A stretch of DNA of 53,336 nucleotides, taken from the NCBI GenBank assembly GCA_043811855.1, contig JBDRMT010000026.1, positions 1-53,336 of the forward strand, written 5' to 3'. This stretch comes from an archaeon (GTDB taxonomy: Archaea; Nanobdellota; Nanobdellia; Pacearchaeales; GW2011-AR1). Position numbers and translations under genes: made by a program. Below, one piece after another: positions 13,864 through 22,388 of the stretch; the stretch's first letter is position 1; each line of letters starts with the position of its first letter. Below the pieces are notes generated by a model, which ran no database searches, had not been told where the DNA came from, and saw only the letters and a program-made list of their open reading frames with translations.

Positions 13864-14739
13864 TTAACTTTCTCTTTTTCTCCTTTTTCTCCAATTTCTA
13901 TAAATAATCCAAATAATTATAAGGACAATAATTAAAATAATAATCCCTGTAATATTACTTTTTTGCATTAAACCTAACTCAACAGCTTTTTTTTCTGTAT
14001 AAACTTTTACTGGAACTTCAAAACTCTCCTCGTATTCTTTATTAAAAACATCTTTAAATTTTAATATTACCGGAAGGTTAAAATTTTCAGAAATATCTTC
14101 CTTAAAAAAAATTTGAAAATCAACACTATCAAAATCATCACTATCTAAATCTCCTACATAAACATTTTTTTGAGAAAGTAAGCTAAATTTTGTTGATTTT
14201 TCAACTTCAACCTCTAAAAACCTAATATCGCTTAAACCTTTGTTAATGATTTTAATAGAAACTTGATTATCTTTACCTTTTAATAAAAGACTATCTTCTA
14301 CACTTACATCAATAATAGGTTCAGAACGAACATCAAGACTTATTAAAGATTCTTTAACACTTTTTTCACTTTTTCCATCTTCAAGATAACTTATCTGAAC
14401 AGGTATTTTATAAGTTTGAGGTTTAGCATTATTTAATGAAACTAATTCAAAGTTTGCATATTTTAATTTACCCTCTCTTATCTCATCAATACCATATTCT
14501 GAGCTTGAATCAAAAGGTGCAAAAGGAATTTCTTTTAAATCTAAAAAAACACTAACATCACTAACATCAGCATCTCCATTATTTCTTAAACCTATTTCAA
14601 TATGAGTAGATTCTCCTGGTTTAATCCCTGAAGAGTCCATTATAACCGAATCAATAACAAGAGCAGAAATACTACTAAGGCTTATTAAAAAAACACATAC
14701 AAATATTAATAGTTTGTTCATAAAAATATTTAGAAACAA
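13864..14739 (-). CDS. secreted surface protein with C-terminal TM anchor (COG1361/CARDB-like beta-sandwich); paralog of 17051-17944
   Basis: It has an N-terminal signal/TM segment. The block VGDLDSDDFDSVDFQIFF is shared with the paralog (VGDLDSDDFESLDFRLKV). The C-terminus is a TM segment followed by a basic tail, RNWRKRRKRES. Confidence 0.6.
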   Translation of the reverse strand: MFLNIFMNKLLIFVCVFLISLSSISALVIDSVIMDSSGIKPGESTHIEIGLRNNGDADVSDVSVFLDLKEIPFAPFDSSSEYGIDEIREGKLKYANFELVSLNNAKPQTYKIPVQISYLEDGKSEKSVKESLISLDVRSEPIIDVSVEDSLLLKGKDNQVSIKIINKGLSDIRFLEVEVEKSTKFSLLSQKNVYVGDLDSDDFDSVDFQIFFKEDISENFNLPVILKFKDVFNKEYEESFEVPVKVYTEKKAVELGLMQKSNITGIIILIIVLIIIWIIYRNWRKRRKRES

Positions 14740-14882
14740 GATTTATAAGGATTGTTAAGATTGTTTATATACTTATTTCAAGATTATCAATAAAACTTAC
14801 CTTCTTATGATTGAATGTATTGTTACTTCTATAAAAATACAACAATAGAAAGATTTTTAAATCAAGGAGTATAAGAAAAAAC

Positions 14883-15659
14883 ATGGAAGAAACAAGTTAC
14901 GGAGAAATTAAAGCAGGAAAACCTGAATTTGAACCAAGAGACTTACTGGTAGTTCCTCATAAAGAAAATCCCTTAGTTGTTAGTAGGTTTGGACTAAATA
15001 ATTATAAAAATAATTTACAACAAATGAAAGGAAAATTTTCTTGTTTGCCAGATTACCCTCAAATAACCTTTAGACCTGCAATTACTTCAGAATCAATTTC
15101 AGCAGTTGCTTATAATTTTAAAAACATAGCTAAACCACAAATTTTTGACCCTAATTTGTTACAAGCAGGATATATAACAAGAACATCAGAAGGAGTTTTT
15201 GCAAATCCTTTTGATGAACAAGGAAATCCATTAACTGATAAAAAAACTCTTAAATTAAAATTAAATGGAGTTAAGCCAATAAAAGTTGGAAAAGGTAATA
15301 TTTATCTCTGTGAAAATGGATTAGCTTTTGCAGAATATGATTCATTTAAGCAAGGAGTTCAGAGTAGTGAAGATTTTTCAAGATCAGGTTTAGCTAGAAT
15401 ATTAGAACATACTGAACAAGAAACAGCTGAAAACCTTGAAGCTATTTCATCACCTAAAAATTATAAATTAGGAGTAAATGTCTTTGGTTTTGAACCTATT
15501 CAAGAGTCTGTTTTAAGGGTTGCTGGCCTTTTCTCTTGTAGGCTTTCTGGTGTTGGTCAGTTGCTTGTTCTTGGTCGCAACTGGAGCGACGGCAACGGCG
15601 GCTTTGCTTTTGGGGTGTTAAATAATACTGGCGAAGCCAGCGCGCAAAATTCTGAGTAA
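14883..15659 (+). CDS. DGR target (variable) protein; VR lies at the C-terminus
   Basis: 258-aa product with no signal peptide or TM segment. The C-terminal stretch ...RVAGLFSCRLSGVGQLLVLGRNWSDGNGGFAFGV is encoded by the VR. Confidence 0.85.
   Translation: MEETSYGEIKAGKPEFEPRDLLVVPHKENPLVVSRFGLNNYKNNLQQMKGKFSCLPDYPQITFRPAITSESISAVAYNFKNIAKPQIFDPNLLQAGYITRTSEGVFANPFDEQGNPLTDKKTLKLKLNGVKPIKVGKGNIYLCENGLAFAEYDSFKQGVQSSEDFSRSGLARILEHTEQETAENLEAISSPKNYKLGVNVFGFEPIQESVLRVAGLFSCRLSGVGQLLVLGRNWSDGNGGFAFGVLNNTGEASAQNSE
15517..15617 (+). repeat. DGR variable region (VR)
   Basis: It aligns without gaps to 15844-15944 over 101 nt. Of 20 mismatches, 18 are at positions where the TR has A. Confidence 0.9.
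15628..15640 (+). promoter_or_regulatory. GC-rich stem-loop just 3' of the VR (candidate DGR target-recognition hairpin)
   Basis: The sequence is ctggc-gaa-gccag (5-bp GC-rich stem, GAA loop) followed by cgcgc. This is conspicuous in an AT-rich genome, and it begins 11 nt after the end of VR homology. Confidence 0.5.
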
Positions 15660-15810
15660 GGTTTATTAATTTTAATTTTTAAGCTATTATGTCTTAGTTT
15701 GGCTTTTAATCATGCTAGGGCCACATGTATTTTACTTATACTCAAAAGAGCATTAAATACAAATGCAACATTAAGTAAACAAATATTTTGTTAAAATATG
15801 AAGCATTGGT

Positions 15811-15830
15811 GATTTTACTTTAAAGTAAAA
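15811..15830 (+). other. perfect 20-nt palindrome 13 nt upstream of the TR
   Basis: attttactttaaagtaaaat is its own reverse complement, giving a 10-bp stem. Confidence 0.5.
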
Positions 15831-15843
15831 TGCTACATAGTCT

Positions 15844-15944
15844 GGGTTGCTGGCCTTAACTCTAATAGGCTTTCTGATGGTGATCAGTTGAATGTTAATG
15901 GCCACAACTGGAGCGACAACAACAACGGCTATGCTTTTGGAATG
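15844..15944 (+). repeat. DGR template region (TR), non-coding
   Basis: It has 26 adenines, concentrated in AAY-type triplets when read in the VR frame (LNSNRLSDGDQLNVNGHNWSDNNNGYAFGM). It lies 25 nt upstream of the RT start codon. Confidence 0.9.
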
Positions 15945-15969
15945 GCTCTAGCAACTAAGATTTATTAAT

Positions 15970-17031
15970 ATGAAAACTTACAAAAATATCTATACTCAAA
16001 TTTATAATATCAGTAATTTGCTCTTTGCTTGGAGAAAAGCAAGAAAAGGAAAAACAAAAAAACCTTATGTAATTGAATTTGAAAAAGATATTATAGGAAA
16101 CTTATTCAAGATTCATAAAGAATTAAAAAATCAAACTTACAAACCCCTACCATTAGAAACATTTATTTTACGAGATCCAAAAACTCGTAAAATTTCAAAA
16201 GCAGATTTTAGAGATAGAATAGTTCATCATGCAATAATTAGAGTTTTAGAACCAATATTTGAACCAACTTTTATTTATGATTCTTGTGCAAATAGAAAGG
16301 GCAAAGGAAACTTATTTGCCTTAAAAAGATTTTATCAATTTTCAAAGAAAGTTTCTGAAAACGGAAAAACAAAAGGAATTTTTAATAATAATCAAATTAA
16401 AGGTTATTGTTTAAAAGCAGACATAAAACATTATTTTCATGAAGTTGATCATGAATCTCTTTTGAATATAATTAAAAGAAAAATATTTGATAAAAGAGTT
16501 ATTTTGTTAATTAAACAAGTCTTAAATAATATTGCGAGGGGGACGAAACAGTTCAAAATTCACAATTTTACAAAAGGCATGCCTTTAGGAAATTTAACAA
16601 GCCAGTTTTTTGCAAATATTTATTTAAATGAATTAGATTATTTTGTAAAACATGAATTAAGATGTAAGTATTATATTAGGTATGTTGATGATTTTATTTT
16701 ACTTTCTTCTTCAAAATCACAACTTGAAATTTGGAAACAAAAAATTAGTAAATTTCTTAATAAAAAATTAAAATTAGAACTTCATACAGATAAATCAAGA
16801 ATAATTTCTCTTTCAAAAGGAATTGATTTTGTTGGATTTAGAAACTTTTATTATCATAAGTTATTAAGAAAAAGAAATATTAGAAAGATGAAATATAAAA
16901 TAAGATTATTTAATAAAAAAGAGATATCTTATGAAAAATTAATTGAAAGTTTTCAGGGATGGCAAGCTTATGCAAACTGGGCAAATAGTGATAATTTAAT
17001 AAAAAAAGTTTTAAAAGAGATTAAAATATAA
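15970..17031 (+). CDS. DGR reverse transcriptase
   Basis: RT motifs are present: RDRIVHHAI, KADIKHYFHEVDH, LGNLTSQFFANIYLNELD (the DGR-type I/LGxxxSQ signature) and RYVDDFILL (the YxDD box). No maturase/X, endonuclease or intron RNA domains are evident. Confidence 0.9.
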   Translation: MKTYKNIYTQIYNISNLLFAWRKARKGKTKKPYVIEFEKDIIGNLFKIHKELKNQTYKPLPLETFILRDPKTRKISKADFRDRIVHHAIIRVLEPIFEPTFIYDSCANRKGKGNLFALKRFYQFSKKVSENGKTKGIFNNNQIKGYCLKADIKHYFHEVDHESLLNIIKRKIFDKRVILLIKQVLNNIARGTKQFKIHNFTKGMPLGNLTSQFFANIYLNELDYFVKHELRCKYYIRYVDDFILLSSSKSQLEIWKQKISKFLNKKLKLELHTDKSRIISLSKGIDFVGFRNFYYHKLLRKRNIRKMKYKIRLFNKKEISYEKLIESFQGWQAYANWANSDNLIKKVLKEIKI

Positions 17032-17050
17032 AAAATTATATAATAAAGAA

Positions 17051-17944
17051 CTACCTACGAAATTTTCTTTTTTTCTTAAATTTCCTATAAACAAACCAGG
17101 CAATAATCAAAACAATAACAATTAAAATAAAATAACCTGCAACCCCTCCATTACTTATGCCTAATTCTTTTGCAGTATACATTTCTAAGTCTAAAATAAT
17201 CTCCTTTTCATAATCATTATTTAGTGAATCTTTATAACTTATTTTTAAGGGTAATTCTACATCTTTCTTAGTATTTATTACTTTTAGTCTAAAATCTAAA
17301 CTTTCAAAATCATCACTATCTAAATCACCAACATATTGTCTTGAATTTGAGATAGTCCTATAATCAGAACTTTCTCCTAACTCAACTGTTAAAAATTTAA
17401 TATCTGCTAATCCATAATTAATAAATCTAATAGTTACATCTCCAATATTATTTCCCTGATAAATTTCTGAATTTTCAACTTCAACAAAGAATTTAGGTAC
17501 TCTTTGAACTATAATCCCAAAAGTGTCATTATCTTCTCTTTCATCACCAATATGATTAACATAATCAATAAGAATCTCTGCATTATAAATTCCTTCTTCA
17601 ACACTAGGATCATAAATTATATTATAAGTAAAAATTCTTGATTCTCCTGAAGGTAATCTTGCAACCTTTCTCCTACTAATGTCTTCATAAAAATAAATAT
17701 TATTAGGCAAATATATCTCAGTTCTTAAATCTAATATTGAAAAGTTTCCGGTATTTTCAATTTCAAGTTTTAATTCTTTTAAATTTTCTTGATCACTATC
17801 AATAATATCCACACTTTTTATAAAAACAATATGTCCAAAATTAAGTCTATATTGTCTTTCAAAATCAAGAGCATAAACAAATCCTACAATTAGTAAAGAG
17901 AATATTATTAAAACACCAAATATCATCAACTCTTTTTTTACCAT
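17051..17944 (-). CDS. secreted surface protein with C-terminal TM anchor (COG1361/CARDB-like); paralog of 13864-14739
   Basis: It has a signal/TM segment at the N-terminus, the shared VGDLDSDDFESLDF block, and a C-terminal TM segment followed by KFKKKRKFRR. Confidence 0.6.
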   Translation of the reverse strand: MVKKELMIFGVLIIFSLLIVGFVYALDFERQYRLNFGHIVFIKSVDIIDSDQENLKELKLEIENTGNFSILDLRTEIYLPNNIYFYEDISRRKVARLPSGESRIFTYNIIYDPSVEEGIYNAEILIDYVNHIGDEREDNDTFGIIVQRVPKFFVEVENSEIYQGNNIGDVTIRFINYGLADIKFLTVELGESSDYRTISNSRQYVGDLDSDDFESLDFRLKVINTKKDVELPLKISYKDSLNNDYEKEIILDLEMYTAKELGISNGGVAGYFILIVIVLIIAWFVYRKFKKKRKFRR

Positions 17945-17979: not shown

Positions 17980-19200
17980 TTATTCATATCTTAGTGCATC
18001 AACTGGTTTTAATTTGCTTGCTTGATAAGAAGGTAAAACTCCTGAAACTAGTCCTACAATAAACGCAAAAGCTAAACTTCCAACAATTATCCAAGGATTC
18101 ATAGAAGCTCTTAGTAAAGTAGATCCAATATAAACAAATGCAATATATTCAATAGATTTTGCAATTATTATTCCAATTACTACACCTGCTAATCCTCCTA
18201 CTAATCCTAAAATTCCAGCTTCAATAACAAATATTGATAATATATCAGAATTTTTTGCACCAATAGCTTTCATAGTTCCAATTTCTTTTCTTCTTTCTAA
18301 AACAGAAGTATACATTGTATTTGCAATTCCAATTCCTCCAACAATAACTGAAATTGATCCAATTCCCAATAAAAATGCAGTTAAAATATTTAAAATATTA
18401 TTAAAAGTACCTAAAAGTTCTTCAGGTGTAAGAACTGTAAAATCCATTGTTTCTTCTTTAACATCTCTAAACTTCATTAATTTTCTTTCAGCTCTTTCTG
18501 CAACTTCATTCATATCTTCTCCTTTTTTAATTTGTGCATAAATAAAATCAACTCTTTCTCCAGAATTAAATAAGCCTTGAAAATCTTTATAAGAAATATA
18601 AACTTGTTGATCATCTTGAGGATTTCCAACAGCATCTAAAACTCCAACAACTTCAAATTCAACATCATTTATAATAATGATATCTCCAGCTGAAACAGGT
18701 TTATCAAATATTTTTCTATATTTATAATTATAACCTATTGCAGCTTTTCCAGATTCTCCTTCCCTTATGAATCTTCCATCTTCCATATCAAGCCCTGTAG
18801 ATTCAAAAACCAAATCTAATTTATCTCCTTCAGTAGGTAAACCCATTACTGAAAAATATCTTGTTTGGTCCTTAAATTCAAATTTTGCATTTCCCATAGT
18901 AAAATAAGTAACTCCCTCAACACCCTTTACTTTTTCAATAATATCAACATCATCTAAAGTTAATTCAACAGCATTTCCAGTTGAACCAGGAGCTCCTGCC
19001 TGCCCTTTAGGTTGTATAAAAAACTTATCTGTTCCTAATAATTCAAACTGTTCATTAACAAACTCATTTAAACCTAAAGATAAACTTAATAAAACAAAAA
19101 TAGTTAAAATTGCTAAAAATATTCCTAATAATGTTAAAATACTTCTAGCTTTTCTTTGCAATAAACTTCTATAAGCTATTTTAAAATAATCTTGTATCAT
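17980..19200 (-). CDS. ABC transporter permease, MacB/FtsX family
   Basis: It has an N-terminal TM segment, a large periplasmic-type domain, and an FtsX C-terminal 3-TM block (GIANTMYTSVLERRKEIGTMKAIGAKNSDI). It ends ...YQASKLKPVDALRYE. Confidence 0.85.
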   Translation of the reverse strand: MIQDYFKIAYRSLLQRKARSILTLLGIFLAILTIFVLLSLSLGLNEFVNEQFELLGTDKFFIQPKGQAGAPGSTGNAVELTLDDVDIIEKVKGVEGVTYFTMGNAKFEFKDQTRYFSVMGLPTEGDKLDLVFESTGLDMEDGRFIREGESGKAAIGYNYKYRKIFDKPVSAGDIIIINDVEFEVVGVLDAVGNPQDDQQVYISYKDFQGLFNSGERVDFIYAQIKKGEDMNEVAERAERKLMKFRDVKEETMDFTVLTPEELLGTFNNILNILTAFLLGIGSISVIVGGIGIANTMYTSVLERRKEIGTMKAIGAKNSDILSIFVIEAGILGLVGGLAGVVIGIIIAKSIEYIAFVYIGSTLLRASMNPWIIVGSLAFAFIVGLVSGVLPSYQASKLKPVDALRYE

Positions 19201-20414
19201 GATCTCAATGCATCAACTGGCTTTAATTTACTTGCTTGATAAGAAGGAATTAATCCTGAAAAAACTCCAATTAAAAAAGAAAAAATTACCATTGAAACAA
19301 TGAATAAAATAGAAATATTAACTCTTATGATTTCATTTCCAAAAAAACTATTTGCAGCTCCTGCAGCACCTAAAGATAATAAAGTTCCTATTAAGACTCC
19401 AATTACCCCTCCTACAAAACCCATTAATCCTGATTCAATAACAAATATTGATAATATATCAGAATTTTTTGCACCAATTGCTTTCATAGTTCCAATTTCT
19501 TTTCTTCTTTCTAAAACAGAAGTATACATTGTATTTGCAATTCCAATTCCTCCAACAATTAAAGATATCATTGCAATACCAATAACAACTAAATTAACAG
19601 AAAAAAGAATATCTCTTACAGCACCAATAGCTTCTAAAGGTGTTTCAACAGAAAAATCTTCTTCACCTTCATCTAAATTTCTATCGTTTCTTAAAGCTTT
19701 TTCAATTCTTTGTCCAACTTCTTCAATTTCATCAGGATTTTCAACCTGAGCAACAATTAAATCAATTTCATCATCAATATCTAACAAATCTTTCATATCA
19801 TCATTTAACATTACAATAACGTCATTAGTCTGAAAACTACTGCCTTTTTTCAAAATACCAATAACCTCAAAATTTTCTCCTTGTATCTTTAAATTTTTTC
19901 CAACCTCTATTTCTTTACCAAAAGTTGTTTCTTTTGCAATATTTTGACCAATAACAATCTTTCCATTATCTCCTTGTTTTAATAATCTTCCTTCTTCAGC
20001 AACTAAATCTCCTGCACCATAAACCACATCCATCTGTTCTTCTTCTTCAGGAATATCTCCAATATAATTAAAACTAGCAACTTTGTTATACTCAACCTTA
20101 ACAACCCTAATCAATCGTTGAACAACTACATCAACCCCCCTTACACTTTCAATAACTTCTACATCATGTTCATTTAGTTTTTCAACAACAGTACTTCCAG
20201 GAGGTCCAAATCCTGTTCCTGCATTTTGAATAGTTAATTTATCTGTTGAAAGTGTTGCAAATTGAGCAGTAACTGCATCCTGAAGCCCTTGCCCCAACCC
20301 TACAAGAGCAACAACAGCAGCAATCCCAATAAAAATACCCAACATTGTTAACCAGCTTCTTAACTTCCTTCGCCTTAGATTATTTGTAGCTAGTTTAAAA
20401 AAATCTATTATCAT
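19197..20414 (-). CDS. ABC transporter permease, MacB/FtsX family (paralog)
   Basis: It has the same architecture and an identical GIANTMYTSVLERRKEIGTMKAIGAKNSDILSIFVIE block. It overlaps the downstream permease by 4 nt. Confidence 0.85.
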   Translation of the reverse strand: MIIDFFKLATNNLRRRKLRSWLTMLGIFIGIAAVVALVGLGQGLQDAVTAQFATLSTDKLTIQNAGTGFGPPGSTVVEKLNEHDVEVIESVRGVDVVVQRLIRVVKVEYNKVASFNYIGDIPEEEEQMDVVYGAGDLVAEEGRLLKQGDNGKIVIGQNIAKETTFGKEIEVGKNLKIQGENFEVIGILKKGSSFQTNDVIVMLNDDMKDLLDIDDEIDLIVAQVENPDEIEEVGQRIEKALRNDRNLDEGEEDFSVETPLEAIGAVRDILFSVNLVVIGIAMISLIVGGIGIANTMYTSVLERRKEIGTMKAIGAKNSDILSIFVIESGLMGFVGGVIGVLIGTLLSLGAAGAANSFFGNEIIRVNISILFIVSMVIFSFLIGVFSGLIPSYQASKLKPVDALRS

Positions 20415-20533
20415 TTTGCAAAATCTCCGTATTTTGTGAAATTCAAAACCTACAAAAGGTTTTGTTATAAAATATAATCAGAACCAGAGTTTATATGTTT
20501 TATTGAAAAATAAATTAACTATGAGGTTTTTTA

Positions 20534-21217
20534 CTAATTTTTACTAAGTGTATGAGGAACTCCTTTTAAGGTTTGTCTAATAAAACTCATTTCTTCTTCA
20601 CTTTTTGAATCTGTAAAAAGATTATATAAACTAGTAATACCTGAAAGATAATGGCCAAGAACTCTTTGACCGTAATTTATCCTAACTTCATATTTTCCTT
20701 CTTGAAGAGCTTTTAAACTTTGATGATTTGCATCAAGTTCTACAATATTATGAGCAGTAATAGGACGAATCTTATTTTCTATCCATGCATCTCTGAATTG
20801 AACAGTATCAAAATAAGGAATTCCTATTGCAACTTGTCTAAAATGAGTTCCCTCATGTTCTCTTAATAAGTGTCTTATTTCACCTTCTGTATAATTTTTA
20901 GAAAATAACCTCGTACCAACAAATAAAGGAGGTTTATTTCCAGAACCTAATAAATAAGATGCTGTTGGAAATCCTGCTATTGAATTAGAAAAACTTCTTT
21001 GCATTAAAGGTTGATTAACAACCTGAGAAGCTATTTCTTCAGAAGCACCTAATCCTCTTAATTGCTCTTCAAACCATTCCTTAGCTAATTTTCCATCTGG
21101 ATCATAACAAATACCTTCACAATAAGGAATTGGTTCTGATAAAAGCTCTGCTAAGAATCTAGGCCTTTTAGATTCATCAATTTTTGCTTCTTCTAGACTT
21201 ATTTTTTGATTAACCAT
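20534..21217 (-). CDS. hypothetical protein with HExxH motif (possible zinc metallopeptidase)
   Basis: The sequence LLREHEGTHFRQ contains H-E-G-T-H. Composition is Lys-poor and atypical for this window. The start at 21217 (MVNQKIS) overlaps the upstream gene by 8 nt; the track start is 21271. Confidence 0.4.
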   Translation of the reverse strand: MVNQKISLEEAKIDESKRPRFLAELLSEPIPYCEGICYDPDGKLAKEWFEEQLRGLGASEEIASQVVNQPLMQRSFSNSIAGFPTASYLLGSGNKPPLFVGTRLFSKNYTEGEIRHLLREHEGTHFRQVAIGIPYFDTVQFRDAWIENKIRPITAHNIVELDANHQSLKALQEGKYEVRINYGQRVLGHYLSGITSLYNLFTDSKSEEEMSFIRQTLKGVPHTLSKN

Positions 21218-21620
21218 TTGTTTTAAGTTTCCATTCTGGAATAATTTCTTGCATTCTTGAAATATGATCACTGTTTATTCCAATTGAGTAATGTTTACTT
21301 GATCTTGAAAAAACTGCCACTTTATCCGCCGTTTGAACATCTGCATAACCCATGCCAACAGCTTGATATCTTGTTCCAGTAGGGCTTGGAATCTCAGTTC
21401 GGACTCTTGTTTCTCCCATTCCAACATTTCCATCAGGATGACTATCCCCTACAATTAATTCATATTCAATGCCTAGCCCATCTAACGTGTCTTTTAGTAT
21501 ATTTGCATGTAAAACTCCTCTACCTAACCTCAAACAGGAATCTCCATCTATCTCCATCTGTACTACCTTGTATAACCCATCTTCTTGAGGCCAATTTACT
21601 AAAGAGATTTTTTCTTCCAT
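21210..21620 (-). CDS. hypothetical protein (compositionally atypical)
   Basis: 136-codon ORF, G/D/V/R-rich. No motif recognised. Confidence 0.45.
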   Translation of the reverse strand: MEEKISLVNWPQEDGLYKVVQMEIDGDSCLRLGRGVLHANILKDTLDGLGIEYELIVGDSHPDGNVGMGETRVRTEIPSPTGTRYQAVGMGYADVQTADKVAVFSRSSKHYSIGINSDHISRMQEIIPEWKLKTNG

Positions 21621-21698
21621 AACTAATGTAGAAATAATTACCCTTATAAATCTTTCTATTAGTTACCACTAAAAAGTAACATATAATATTAAGAAGTC

Positions 21699-22388
21699 TT
21701 ACTTATTAACAATCTTTCCATCTCTTAAATGATAAATCTTATTAGCATGTTTAGCAACATACATATCATGAGTAACTAAAATAATTGTTTTTCCTTCATC
21801 ATTTAGCTTATTAAGCATTTTTGCAACTTCTTCTCCTCTTTTGGAATCTAAATTTCCAGTAGGTTCATCAGCTAAAATAACTTCAGGATCATTTGCAAGT
21901 GCACGAGCAACAGCAACTCTTTGCCTTTCCCCTCCTGATAATTCACCAGGAAGATGAGTTAATCTATGACCCATTCCTAATTTTTCTAATAATTCTTTTG
22001 CTTTTTCTTTTCTTTCTTCACCACCAACCCCTTGAAAAATCATAGGTAACATTACATTTTCTAATGCATTTAATGTAGGTATTAAATTAAAAGTTTGAAA
22101 AACAAAACCTATTTTTCTACCTCTTATTTGTGCTAATTCTGATTCTCCTAAATGTTCAATATTAATATTATCTAAAAAAATATCTCCTTTGGTTGCAAAG
22201 TCCAAAGCACCAACAAGATTCATCATTGTACTTTTTCCACTTCCACTTGGACCAACAATAGCAATAAAATCTCCTTTTTTAACTGTAATATCCACATCAT
22301 CAACAGCCTTTATAGTTTCATCACCTAAAAAATAACATTTATCAACTTTTCTTAATTTAATTATTTCATTATTTTTTTCTTTTACCAT
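21699..22388 (-). CDS. ABC transporter ATP-binding protein (MacB/LolD-like)
   Basis: Motifs: Walker A GPSGSGKST, Q-loop, signature LSGGERQRVAVARAL, Walker B ILADEPTGNLD, and the H-loop VTHD. Confidence 0.95.
   Translation of the reverse strand: MVKEKNNEIIKLRKVDKCYFLGDETIKAVDDVDITVKKGDFIAIVGPSGSGKSTMMNLVGALDFATKGDIFLDNINIEHLGESELAQIRGRKIGFVFQTFNLIPTLNALENVMLPMIFQGVGGEERKEKAKELLEKLGMGHRLTHLPGELSGGERQRVAVARALANDPEVILADEPTGNLDSKRGEEVAKMLNKLNDEGKTIILVTHDMYVAKHANKIYHLRDGKIVNK

What the first reader, a model, noticed from the sequence alone, without database searches (positions are those of the whole stretch)
14883..17031. Complete diversity-generating retroelement (VR-bearing target gene, TR, DGR-type RT) with no visible Avd and an apparently intracellular target
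Seen directly: nt 15517-15617 (the 3' end of ORF 14883-15659) and the non-coding nt 15844-15944 align without gaps over 101 nt. By hand count 20 positions differ. Of these, 18 are TR adenines (18 of the 26 A in the TR become T, G or C in the VR). Only 2 of the 75 non-A positions differ (VR15553/TR15880 and VR15575/TR15902). Read in the VR frame, the TR encodes LNSNRLSDGDQLNVNGHNWSDNNNGYAFGM, so the adenines sit in the first and second positions of AAY/GAT/CAC/TAT codons. The VR encodes LFSCRLSGVGQLLVLGRNWSDGNGGFAFGV. An RT ORF starts 25 nt after the TR and carries the YVDD box and the LGNLTSQ (I/LGxxxSQ) signature typical of DGR RTs. Established knowledge: adenine-specific mutagenic retrohoming (the Bordetella phage BPP-1 paradigm), and DGRs have been reported in DPANN archaea. 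Unusual or inferred: no Avd-sized ORF fits in the 184-nt VR-TR spacer or next to the cassette. The target has no signal peptide or TM segment. The N-terminal roughly 210 aa of the target match no family I recognise.
Basis: partly seen in the sequence, partly recalled or inferred. Interest (0 to 1): 0.9.

Follow-up and report, generated by a model that had tools for sequence, protein, structure and literature searches.

The report
Active Avd-less archaeal DGR with RT-16 RNA
This is a working diversity-generating retroelement in a tiny DPANN archaeon that rewrites the tail of a small soluble protein without the usual helper protein Avd, apparently relying instead on a conserved structured RNA (Rfam RT-16) placed in front of its template.

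Summary
VR 15517-15617 and TR 15844-15944 align without gaps, with 20 mismatches. Eighteen are at TR adenines and 2 of 75 are at other bases (Fisher p = 6.6e-12).

The element is active. An independent metagenome contig is identical to the window over 1,676 nt. It differs at 19 positions, all inside the VR, and 17 of them lie opposite TR adenines.

The RT is DGR-type: its best solved relative is Bordetella phage bRT (E 1.4e-41), and it carries LGNLTSQ and YVDD. No Avd was found in the window or beside related cassettes.

The "empty" VR-TR spacer is not empty. It holds an archaeal TATA-like box and a full-length Rfam RT-16 RNA (76 bits) that ends 2 nt before the TR. RT-16, TR and RT are linked in about 50 Nanoarchaeota loci.

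Covariation shows that the RT-16 5' end pairs with the 17 nt just 3' of the TR. This closes the TR into a loop. The topology is a circular permutation of the BPP-1 template:primer / stop-duplex core.

The target belongs to a DPANN-only family of about 250 aa. It has no signal peptide, no Pfam match and no Foldseek match.

Avd-less DGRs are already known. The RNA architecture is the new part.

The parts
14883..15659 (+). Target (variable-protein) gene, 258 aa. It is a soluble protein and a member of a DPANN-only family of about 250 aa.
   Evidence: ORF. 83 homologs in the 90%-identity clusters and 344 clusters at 50% identity, almost all about 250 aa. No Pfam, NCBIfam, PHROG or PDB-sequence match. 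AF2 model with pLDDT 89 has no Foldseek hit. No TM segment or signal peptide.
15517..15617 (+). VR. The mutable part is about 15531-15604. It encodes predicted strands residues 210-219, 226-230 and 240-246.
15606..15617 (+). IMH-like invariant end of the VR (GCTTTTGGGGTG, encoding AFGV). It differs from the TR (GGAATG) by two fixed bases.
   Evidence: The same GG/AA difference occurs in L001-L007, L092 and L032. AFGV is nearly invariant in the family.
15628..15640 (+). GC-rich hairpin CTGGC-GAA-GCCAG, 10 nt after the VR. It is the candidate target-recognition hairpin/cruciform.
   Evidence: Present with compensatory stem changes in 13 loci. It lies in the coding tail or across the stop codon.
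15662..15670 (+). TATA-like box TTTATTAAT (archaeal promoter) for the RT-16-TR-RT transcript.
   Evidence: Centred 24-28 nt upstream of UCUUAG in 31 of 41 distinct loci.
15690..15841 (+). RT-16 RNA (Rfam RF03019). It is the 5' structured domain of the DGR RNA.
   Evidence: 76.4 bits (gathering score 50), E 3.5e-10, model positions 1-158. The same arrangement occurs in about 50 loci.
15690..15697 (+). S1 (UGUCUUAG): 5' strand of long-range helix A. Alternatively it forms the 5' strand of the lower stem of Rfam P1.
15714..15723 (+). S2 (GCUAGGGCC) plus A15723: 5' strand of long-range helix C. A15723 is the candidate priming nucleotide and starts the invariant ACAYG (15723-15727).
   Evidence: The priming role is an inference by analogy with Sp A56 of BPP-1.
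15832..15840 (+). Invariant GCUACAUAG at the RT-16/TR junction. It is the 3' end of helix P2 and the candidate cDNA stop.
15844..15944 (+). TR (template repeat), non-coding.
   Evidence: It is identical in the L032 population variant.
15943..15961 (+). TR 3' flank: S3a (U-GGCUCUAGC) and S3b (CUAAGAU). These pair with S2+A15723 and with S1.
   Evidence: Helix C is 94% paired, and 7 of its 9 pairs change on both sides. 0 of 500 shuffles reach the observed values. Both helices appear in the MFE fold, the centroid fold and the RNAalifold consensus.
15970..17031 (+). DGR reverse transcriptase, 353 aa, intact. LGNLTSQ at 16585-16605 and YVDD at 16681-16692.
   Evidence: RVT_1 2.3e-23. bRT 8ub7_A E 1.4e-41 over residues 2-344. 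phrog_1423 1e-118.
16538..16542 (+). Short G5 run in the RT. At this site, relatives carry poly-G of 8-11 or (AG)n tracts.

Best explanation
The locus is a chromosomal, currently active DGR that encodes no Avd in the window, in a DPANN (Nanoarchaeota-type) archaeon. It belongs to a large clade whose RNA component is the Rfam motif RT-16. SHOWN: a TATA-like box sits about 26 nt before the RT-16 5' end. RT-16 abuts the TR. The 17 nt after the TR pair with the RT-16 5' end through two covarying helices: S1 with S3b, and S2 plus A15723 with U15943 plus S3a. Helix P2 of RT-16 ends just upstream of the TR. The TR is therefore a loop of about 100 nt held between two helices joined by a 2-nt linker (C15724-A15725 of the invariant ACAYG, 15723-27). 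In BPP-1 the Sp strand makes the same core (template:primer duplex, a 2-nt linker, then the upstream 'cPRT stop' duplex). Here the organising strand lies 5' of the TR instead of 3'. The RT is a bRT homolog. Two natural variants of this locus differ only in the VR, and almost only opposite TR adenines. INFERRED: one transcript (RT-16, TR, flank, RT mRNA) folds into this junction. The RT binds it without Avd. cDNA synthesis is cis-primed at or next to A15723, runs through the TR with random incorporation opposite A, and stops at P2. The cDNA then replaces VR 15517 to about 15605, guided by the IMH-like end and the downstream GC hairpin. This diversifies a C-terminal beta-meander on a soluble binding protein of unknown ligand (about 4e14 possible variants).
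For: A-specific TR/VR mismatches, p = 6.6e-12. The same pattern holds in L001, L002, L003, L006 and L007, with 12/12, 16/16, 15/16, 17/17 and 18/18 mismatches at A, and in four VRs sharing one TR in L092. Population variant L032 shows 19 differences in 1,777 nt, all in the VR, 17 opposite TR-A. RT relationships: bRT 1.4e-41 versus group II RT 1e-21, below the NCBIfam cut-offs for group II and retron RTs, and phrog_1423 1e-118. RT-16 scores above the gathering threshold in the window and in 11 other loci scanned with Rfam, and always ends 1-6 nt before the TR. Long-range helices: 88.5% of cells paired, 15 of 18 pairs with double changes, 0 of 500 shuffles reaching the observed values, and slide controls at 22-52%. 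Pairs outside Rfam P1 covary, for example C-G to U-A five times. The MFE fold, centroid fold and RNAalifold consensus recover both helices. Promoter geometry. No Avd. BPP-1 architecture taken from Handa et al., bioRxiv 10.1101/2023.10.23.563531. Avd-less DGRs appear to work without avd elsewhere in the genome (Wu et al. 2018).
Against: No experiment or RNA/cDNA data are available here, so the priming site and Avd-independence are inferences. Only 53 kb of the genome is visible, so an Avd gene elsewhere cannot be excluded. The lower stem of Rfam's P1 hairpin (S1 with S2) also covaries and cannot coexist with the long-range helices, so the RNA may switch conformation or only one form may matter. 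The S1 and S3b windows were anchored by best complementarity, which inflates the scores for P1 and helix A; helix C used fixed windows. The long-range pairing could correspond only to a 'stop' duplex and not to a template:primer duplex. The function and fold class of the target remain unknown.
Confidence: 0.75

Rival explanations
1. This is a conventional Avd-dependent DGR whose avd gene lies elsewhere in the genome. RT-16 is only a leader or regulatory RNA for the RT mRNA and not a functional substitute for Sp/Avd.
For: Avd is essential in BPP-1. Only 53 kb of the genome is in the window. Avd proteins are poorly conserved, so HMMs may miss one.
Against: No Avd family hit among the small ORFs of the window. 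No conserved Avd-sized ORF in or next to about 18 related cassettes. Wu et al. found no distant avd in genomes with Avd-less DGRs. RT-16 is structurally joined to both ends of the TR by covarying helices.
Confidence: 0.15
2. The long-range helices are only the equivalent of the 'cPRT stop'/closing duplex. Priming happens elsewhere, either from RNA inside the RT coding region or by target-primed reverse transcription at the VR.
For: Pairing between sequences upstream and downstream of the TR is reported as the stop duplex in 207 of 278 Avd-bearing DGRs. Only about 25 nt separate the TR from the RT start codon, so a downstream element would have to overlap the ORF. The two TR adenines next to helix C never appear mutated in VRs.
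Against: Helix C starts at the last TR base and is followed on the other strand by an invariant A-C-A. This mirrors Sp47-56/A56/G57 of BPP-1. A separate helix (P2) already sits at the TR 5' end as a stop candidate.
Confidence: 0.3
3. The locus is not a DGR. The RT plus RT-16 forms a retron-like or group-II-like element, and the TR/VR repeat is a decaying partial gene duplication.
For: The RNA topology resembles retron a1/a2 pairing, with 5'-end pairing to sequence 3' of the template. Weinberg et al. suggested that many RT motifs might be retrons. Some sources name homologs 'retron-type RT'.
Against: The mismatches are adenine-specific in six independent loci and four paralogs. The population variation is restricted to the VR. 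The RT is closest to bRT, and its retron and group II scores are far below their cut-offs. Rfam finds no group II intron RNA.
Confidence: 0.02

Closest known systems
Bordetella phage BPP-1 DGR (mtd-avd-TR-brt; Sp RNA = Rfam RT-10)
   Same: Adenine-specific TR-to-VR transfer. The RT is homologous over its full length (E 1.4e-41) with I/LGxxxSQ and YxDD. AAY-rich TR. The VR lies at the 3' end of the target with an invariant IMH-like end and a downstream GC hairpin. The TR is looped out between two RNA helices joined by a short linker.
   Different: No Avd. Here the structured RNA (RT-16, about 150 nt) lies 5' of the TR, with only about 17 conserved nt 3' of it. In BPP-1 a 140-nt Sp lies 3' of the TR. 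The two RNA families differ (RT-16 versus RT-10). This element is cellular and archaeal. The target is not a recognisable CLec protein.
Architecture A1 (TR-RT, no accessory gene) DGRs of the CPR/DPANN set (Wu et al. 2018; Paul et al. 2017)
   Same: Target-TR-RT order, no accessory gene, DPANN host, and a VR class unassignable to CLec or Ig by sequence ('UVR').
   Different: Those surveys did not describe an associated structured RNA. The 2024 RNA-element survey covered only Avd-bearing DGRs. I could not check whether this exact target family is one of UVR1-6.
Rfam RF03019 RT-16 RNA (Weinberg et al. 2017)
   Same: Full-length match above the gathering score, next to an RT gene.
   Different: The published motif had no assigned function, and only RT-10 was tied to a DGR. 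Here the lower P1 stem competes with, or is replaced by, pairing to sequence beyond the TR, which the motif boundaries did not include.
AvpA, Nanoarchaeota DGR variable protein (Handa et al. 2016)
   Same: Single-domain soluble protein of about 256 aa. The VR lies near the C-terminus and ends in an IMH-encoded beta-strand (RFxGV versus AFGV here). The hairpin is encoded in the tail. Host lineage is similar.
   Different: No sequence or profile similarity. The AvpA motifs GxxVVVYAH and HPxxxPFxG are absent. No solved structure matches the model at Foldseek E below 0.4, and none of the 50 listed matches is a C-type-lectin protein. The AvpA DGRs were described as having Avd-like proteins.
Retron msr-msd/RT
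   Same: The 5' end of the ncRNA pairs with sequence just 3' of the template. This places a conserved unpaired or terminal purine next to the template end, as with a1/a2 and the branching G.
   Different: The RT is of the DGR clade. The template is a copy of a protein-coding segment. The product is used for A-mutagenic homing into the VR.

Membership tests
Diversity-generating retroelement | TR/VR repeat pair whose differences fall almost only at TR adenines | tested here: met
   18 of 20 mismatches are at A (18 of 26 A versus 2 of 75 non-A), p = 6.6e-12.
Diversity-generating retroelement | RT of the DGR clade with motif 4 [I/L]GxxxSQ and a YxDD catalytic box | tested here: met
   The best PDB relative is BPP-1 bRT 8ub7_A, E 1.4e-41, aligned over residues 2-344. 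LGNLTSQ aligns to IGSLTSQ. YVDD is present. No tree was built.
Diversity-generating retroelement | VR inside a protein-coding target, TR non-coding and next to the RT, and TR adenines in codon positions 1 and 2 (AAY) with no possible stop codons | tested here: met
   8 AAY codons, 25 of 26 A in positions 1 or 2, no stop codon reachable.
Diversity-generating retroelement | IMH-type invariant VR end and a GC-rich hairpin/cruciform downstream of the VR | tested here: met
   Fixed GGGGTG versus GGAATG. Hairpin 15628-15640 is conserved with compensatory changes. Its function was not tested.
Diversity-generating retroelement | Ongoing diversification of the VR in populations | tested here: met
   L032 versus the window: 19 differences in 1,777 nt, all in the VR, 17 opposite TR-A.
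Diversity-generating retroelement | Accessory protein Avd (present in about 74% of DGRs; essential in BPP-1) | tested here: not met
   No ORF of 45 aa or more between the target and the RT. No PF05635/TIGR02436 hit among the small ORFs of the window or near related cassettes. The rest of the genome was not seen.
Diversity-generating retroelement | Variable protein with a C-type-lectin or Ig-like fold | tested here: inconclusive
Rfam RF03019 (RT-16 RNA) | Covariance-model score at or above the gathering score over the full model | tested here: met
   76.4 bits versus 50, model positions 1-158, coordinates 15692-15841.
Rfam RF03019 (RT-16 RNA) | Location next to an RT gene on the same strand | tested here: met
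   The RT starts 129 nt downstream. The same holds in related loci.
Retron | Retron-clade RT and an msr/msd ncRNA producing msDNA | tested here: not met
   NF038233 scores 48.5 bits against a cut-off of 235. The bRT match is far stronger. Only the panhandle topology is alike.
Group II intron | Intron RNA domains flanking an RT/maturase ORF | tested here: not met
   TIGR04416 scores 152.6 bits against a cut-off of 300. Rfam finds no group II intron family in 15400-17200 even at E up to 1.
AvpA-like archaeal variable proteins | Conserved motifs GxxVVVYAH, HPxxxPFxG and RFxGV, and sequence homology to AvpA | tested here: not met
   The family profile gave no significant match to any PDB sequence; the single hit at E up to 10 is an acyl-carrier-protein reductase (E 1.8). 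The first two motifs are absent from alignment A1, and only the beta5 motif (AFGV) is similar.

The most novel reading that the evidence does not exclude
RT-16 is the functional equivalent of the BPP-1 Sp RNA moved to the 5' side of the template, and it also takes over the scaffolding role of Avd. That would make this a two-component DGR, consisting of one 353-aa RT and one cis RNA of about 280 nt. cDNA synthesis would be cis-primed, retron-like, from the 2'-OH of A15723 upstream of the template. In many relatives the RT may additionally be switched on and off by slippage at a poly-G or (AG)n tract.
Probability: 0.35. Interest if true: 0.8.

Novelty: new variant of a known kind. Interest (0 to 1): 0.62.

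Why it matters
About a quarter of known DGRs lack Avd, and how they reverse-transcribe is an open question. The only mechanistic model (BPP-1) depends on Avd and on a 3' spacer RNA, and the recent survey of DGR RNA elements left the Avd-less elements out.

This locus and about 50 relatives give a concrete, compact and testable architecture for one Avd-less clade.

- It has its own promoter and a defined 5' structured RNA, which gives the orphan Rfam motif RT-16 a role.
- Two covarying long-range helices pin both ends of the template.
- There is a candidate priming nucleotide.
- There is direct evidence that the element is active in nature.

If the RT and its RNA suffice, this would be the smallest DGR core known. 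That matters for understanding A-mutagenic reverse transcription and for engineering targeted mutagenesis tools.

The target family is abundant in DPANN archaea, soluble, and without a recognisable fold or export signal. This bears on what these host-dependent nano-archaea need to vary.

Tried and rejected
- **Other VR copies.** A scan of both strands of the window with A-wildcards found none.
- **Locus search with the 40-sequence alignment.** It failed because no stretch was conserved enough. A 15-sequence alignment worked.
- **Target fold and family.** Pfam, NCBIfam and PHROGs gave nothing. A profile search against PDB sequences gave nothing. Foldseek against PDB and BFVD gave only noise, with TM about 0.1. 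Three other target types of the same DGR clade also hit nothing in PDB sequences, so AvpA could not be retrieved for a direct profile comparison.
- **Metagenome pattern scan.** Twelve of 65 matches were chance hits without RT-16 and were discarded.
- **Avd candidates.** ORFs of 80-190 aa next to 18 related cassettes were examined. Those inside the cassettes are RT C-terminal fragments or antisense noise. The rest are MazG-like, CxxCxxCC or unconserved.
- **Direct evidence for phase variation.** I looked for near-identical locus pairs that differ in tract length and found none.
- **Literature gaps.** The supplement of Weinberg et al. and Paul et al. 2017 are not held. A full-text search for RT-16 found nothing relevant.
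- **The look-up of encoding contigs for the window's own target.** Not on record.
- **Retron and group II readings.** Rejected on RT scores and on the A-specific pattern.
Full report
**1. Observation**

VR 15517-15617 and TR 15844-15944 align without gaps over 101 nt, with 20 mismatches. Eighteen fall at TR adenines (18 of 26 A). Two fall at the other 75 positions (Fisher p = 6.6e-12). No other copy of the TR exists on either strand of the window.

The target is 14883-15659 (258 aa). The RT is 15970-17031 (353 aa) and starts 25 nt after the TR.

In the target's frame the TR holds 8 AAY codons. Twenty-five of its 26 adenines are in codon positions 1 or 2. No stop codon can arise, and about 4e14 protein variants are possible.

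**2. It is a DGR, and it is active**

- The RT matches Pfam RVT_1.
- Its best solved relative is the Bordetella phage DGR RT (8ub7_A, E 1.4e-41, aligned over residues 2-344; LGNLTSQFFANIY aligns with IGSLTSQLFANVY). Group II intron RTs follow at 1e-21.
- Its NCBIfam scores for group II and retron RTs are far below the curated cut-offs.
- It matches phrog_1423 'reverse transcriptase' at 1e-118.

A scan of public metagenome contigs returned L032 (Ga0180007_10115256, 1,777 nt), which covers window 14523-16299. The two sequences are identical at all 1,676 positions outside the VR. They differ at 19 positions inside it. Seventeen of those lie opposite TR adenines. The other two are exactly the window's two non-A mismatches, and at those positions L032 agrees with the TR.

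The last two apparent A-to-G changes (TR GGAATG, VR GGGGTG) are identical in both variants and in all related loci. They are therefore fixed IMH-type differences and not mutagenesis.

A GC-rich hairpin with a 3-nt loop (CTGGC-GAA-GCCAG, 15628-15640) lies 10 nt after the VR. It recurs in 13 loci with compensatory stem changes, inside the coding tail or even across the stop codon. This corresponds to the target-recognition hairpin/cruciform reported downstream of the VR in the Bordetella phage DGR and in archaeal DGRs.

**3. The family of elements**

The target has 83 homologs in the 90%-identity clusters, all about 240-265 aa. Those that carry a source name are annotated as Nanoarchaeota or unclassified archaea.

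Twenty-six GTDB genome loci encode a relative of the target.

- Five of them have an adjacent TR with 12/12, 16/16, 15/16, 17/17 and 18/18 mismatches at adenines.
- Four have a detectable RT homolog of 64-71% identity.
- One contig (L092) has four tandem target paralogs and one TR. Each VR differs from the TR at 14-18 adenines and at 1-2 other bases.

The RT has thousands of homologs. The top 120 are 64-73% identical, and those that carry a source name are annotated as Nanoarchaeota, Pacearchaeota or unclassified archaea.

The window also carries archaeal ribosomal protein genes, an RNA polymerase subunit F homolog, a 5S rRNA gene and tRNA genes. The element is therefore chromosomal.

**4. The spacer is not empty: promoter plus RT-16 RNA**

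Rfam's gathering-threshold scan places RF03019 'RT-16 RNA' at 15692-15841. The score is 76.4 bits against a threshold of 50, and the whole model (1-158) is matched. The hit fills the gap between the target's stop codon and the TR and ends 2 nt before the TR.

RT-16 is one of 19 'RT' motifs found near RT genes by Weinberg et al. 2017. Only RT-10 (the BPP-1 TR-brt spacer) was assigned to a DGR in that paper. RT-16 had no assignment (PMC5737381).

RT-16 is also called directly after the target gene in 8 of the 26 genome loci. In the five of these where a TR was located, it ends 1-6 nt before the TR.

A pattern taken from the RT-16 3' half retrieved 65 metagenome stretches.

- Twelve were chance matches lacking RT-16.
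- The rest show RT-16 followed by a TR and a bRT-like RT wherever the contig extends far enough.
- Of 43 loci with room upstream, 33 have the same target family directly upstream.
- The others carry different proteins of about 230-280 aa that also end in a VR plus a hairpin-encoding 'SAEGAS' tail. One type is a distant homolog of the window's target (hhalign 85%, E 6e-6). Another is unrelated.

A box TTTATTAAT/C is centred 24-28 nt before the first conserved RT-16 bases (UCUUAG) in 31 of 41 distinct loci. In the window it lies at 15662-15670. This is the spacing of an archaeal TATA box from its transcription start (established knowledge). It implies a dedicated transcript that starts at the RT-16 5' end and continues through the TR into the RT ORF. 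That reading is an inference.

**5. Long-range RNA pairing**

The 17 nt after the TR (GGCUCUAGC-AA-CUAAGA, 15944-15960) are conserved and are absent from the VR. They are complementary to the RT-16 5' end.

- Helix A: S3b (CUAAGAU) pairs with S1 (UGUCUUAG, 15690-15697).
- Helix C: U15943 plus S3a pairs with S2 (GCUAGGGCC, 15714-15722) plus A15723.

I counted pairs on 29 distinct loci (alignment A4).

- Helix C was extracted with fixed windows. It is 94.3% paired, and 7 of its 9 pairs change on both sides.
- The whole two-helix structure is 88.5% paired, and 15 of 18 pairs have double changes.
- No shuffle out of 500 reaches any observed measure.
- Sliding the partner by 1-3 columns drops pairing to 22-52%.

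Pairs that lie outside Rfam's P1 hairpin covary, for example C-G to U-A five times at the pair formed with the last TR base.

Three independent predictions contain both helices:

- the minimum-free-energy fold of window 15690-15972;
- the centroid fold of the same stretch;
- an RNAalifold consensus on an independent MAFFT alignment of 23 full-length RNAs with a fixed 30-nt 3' extension.

The lower stem of Rfam's P1 (S1 with S2) is also well paired and covaries. Its S1 window was chosen for best fit, so that count is biased upward. P1 and the long-range helices exclude each other. The RNA may therefore switch conformation, or the P1 stem may only form before the 3' flank has been transcribed.

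**6. Comparison with the BPP-1 RNP**

In the cryo-EM structures of bRT-Avd-RNA, one Sp strand forms two duplexes (Handa et al., bioRxiv 10.1101/2023.10.23.563531).

- Sp47-56 forms the template:primer duplex with TR 118-129 (the template base is TR G117). The priming nucleotide is A56.
- After two unpaired nucleotides, Sp59-70 forms the 'cPRT stop' duplex with the segment upstream of the TR.
- The TR loops out between the two duplexes.

The order of elements here is the same. S2 plus A15723 pairs with the sequence that begins at the last TR bases. Two nucleotides, C15724 and A15725 of the invariant ACAYG (15723-15727), follow. Then comes the 5' strand of helix P2, whose 3' strand ends in the invariant GCUACAUAG immediately upstream of the TR.

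The difference is connectivity. The organising strand lies 5' of the template, not 3'. This is a circular permutation. It gives a retron-like arrangement, with a priming-candidate purine upstream of the template and next to a stem that closes on the template's 3' end.

That paper's survey of RNA elements covered only the 278 DGRs that have Avd.

I therefore propose that RT-16 is the Sp-equivalent scaffold of this Avd-less clade and that priming occurs at or next to A15723. The pairing is shown. The priming site and Avd-independence are inferred.

**7. Avd**

- There is no ORF of 45 aa or more between the target and the RT.
- None of the small ORFs of the window hits Avd families.
- Gene calls around L092 and ORFs around 18 related cassettes show no conserved Avd-sized gene.

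Avd-less DGRs are not new. Wu et al. 2018 report avd in 74% of DGRs, describe an accessory-free 'Architecture A', and found no distant avd in those genomes (PMC5758913). The absence of Avd is therefore real for what can be seen, but on its own it is ordinary.

**8. The target**

The family alignment shows about 210 conserved N-terminal residues. A hypervariable stretch of about 35 residues follows, on the scaffold RVAxLxSxR..RL.V.G..W.D...G.AFGVL.

A profile search of 1.84 billion cluster representatives finds 344 clusters. Nearly all are single-domain proteins of about 250 aa.

No member examined has a TM segment or a signal-like N-terminus. One distant member (P0206) has a twin-arginine/lipobox leader.

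AlphaFold2 with the family alignment gives a confident model (pLDDT 89, pTM 0.87). The VR forms three C-terminal strands.

Foldseek finds nothing in PDB or BFVD; the best E-value is about 0.4 with TM about 0.1. None of the 50 listed matches is a C-type-lectin protein.

A divergent CLec fold is not excluded, for three reasons.

- AvpA is a 256-aa Nanoarchaeota DGR protein with a CLec core interrupted by inserts. Its VR sits near the C-terminus and ends in an IMH-encoded beta5 strand 'RFxGV' (here 'AFGV').
- The order of secondary-structure elements in the model is compatible with that layout.

The other AvpA motifs are absent, however, and profiles do not connect the two families. Fold class is therefore undecided, and function is unknown. 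A ligand-binding role is inferred from the DGR context.

**9. Noticed in relatives: repeat tracts in the RT**

Twenty-one of 28 distinct RT genes of this clade carry a simple-sequence tract at one fixed site. The tract lies 20-60 nt before the GMPLGNLTSQ codons and is either poly-G/C of 8-11 or (AG)n of 16-25 nt.

- Seventeen of the 21 are out of frame in the assembled consensus, with both +1 and -1 shifts.
- All 7 genes without a long tract are in frame. The window is one of these; it has only G5 at 16538-16542.

This pattern suggests slipped-strand phase variation of DGR activity. I found no pair of near-identical loci with different tract lengths, and assembly error at such tracts is an alternative explanation. 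It remains a lead.

**10. Verdict**

The finding is real and the DGR interpretation is supported. As a DGR in a DPANN archaeon without Avd, it is a member of a known kind. The new elements are:

- the assignment of RT-16 to this DGR clade;
- the covarying helices that tie RT-16 to the 3' side of the TR in a permuted BPP-1-like core;
- the dedicated promoter;
- the direct evidence of activity;
- the unclassifiable target fold.

Together these make it a new variant of a known kind and a good experimental entry point to Avd-independent DGRs.

Noticed in passing
window 16538-16542 (G5); related loci L006, L007, L042, L045, L051, L052, L058, L062, L064, L065, L073, L076, L077, L083, L087, L088, L090: At one fixed site in the RT ORF, just upstream of the GMPLGNLTSQ codons, 21 of 28 distinct relatives carry poly-G/C of 8-11 or (AG)n of 16-25 nt. 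Seventeen of these are out of frame (both +1 and -1). All 7 without a long tract, including the window, are in frame. This may be phase variation of DGR activity, or assembly error.
   Followed up: partly
window 13864-14739 (-) and 17051-17944 (-); 17980-22388 (-): The + strand DGR cassette sits between two paralogous membrane-anchored CARDB-domain proteins that share a YVGDLDSDDF(D/E)S motif. These belong to a cluster with two MacB/FtsX permeases and an ABC ATPase. The genomic context differs in related loci, so the cassette seems to have been inserted here.
   Followed up: partly
L092 5613-10226: Four tandem paralogous target genes (260, 259, 259 and 258 aa) are served by a single RT-16-TR-RT unit. 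Each VR differs from the TR at 14-18 adenines, plus 1-2 non-A positions.
   Followed up: yes
L004, L009, L019, L021, L013 (target homologs): Many target-family genes have no RT-16, TR or RT within 5 kb, yet some keep the TTTGGGGTG end and the GC hairpin. L013 has two paralogs 3.6 kb apart. They may be trans targets of a DGR elsewhere, or former targets.
   Followed up: no
protein P0206 (372 aa, distant family member): It carries an N-terminal twin-arginine-like leader with a lipobox (MIRLSRLTRREFL...FAGCG), unlike the rest of the family. At least one relative therefore looks exported.
   Followed up: no
window 15961-15969: The TATA-like motif TTTATTAAT occurs a second time immediately before the RT start codon, overlapping the end of helix A. 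This is not conserved in other loci.
   Followed up: no
L040, L041, L047, L080, L069: These are decayed copies of the element. RT-16 is intact, but the TR is truncated or the RT is fragmentary or missing.
   Followed up: partly
L028/L072, L045/L040/L063/L047/L058, L052/L087/L080, L081: RT-16-type DGRs also diversify other small proteins (about 230-280 aa) with no known domains. All end in a VR followed by a hairpin-encoded '(S)AEGAS'-like tail. One type is a distant homolog of the window's target, and another shows no similarity.
   Followed up: partly
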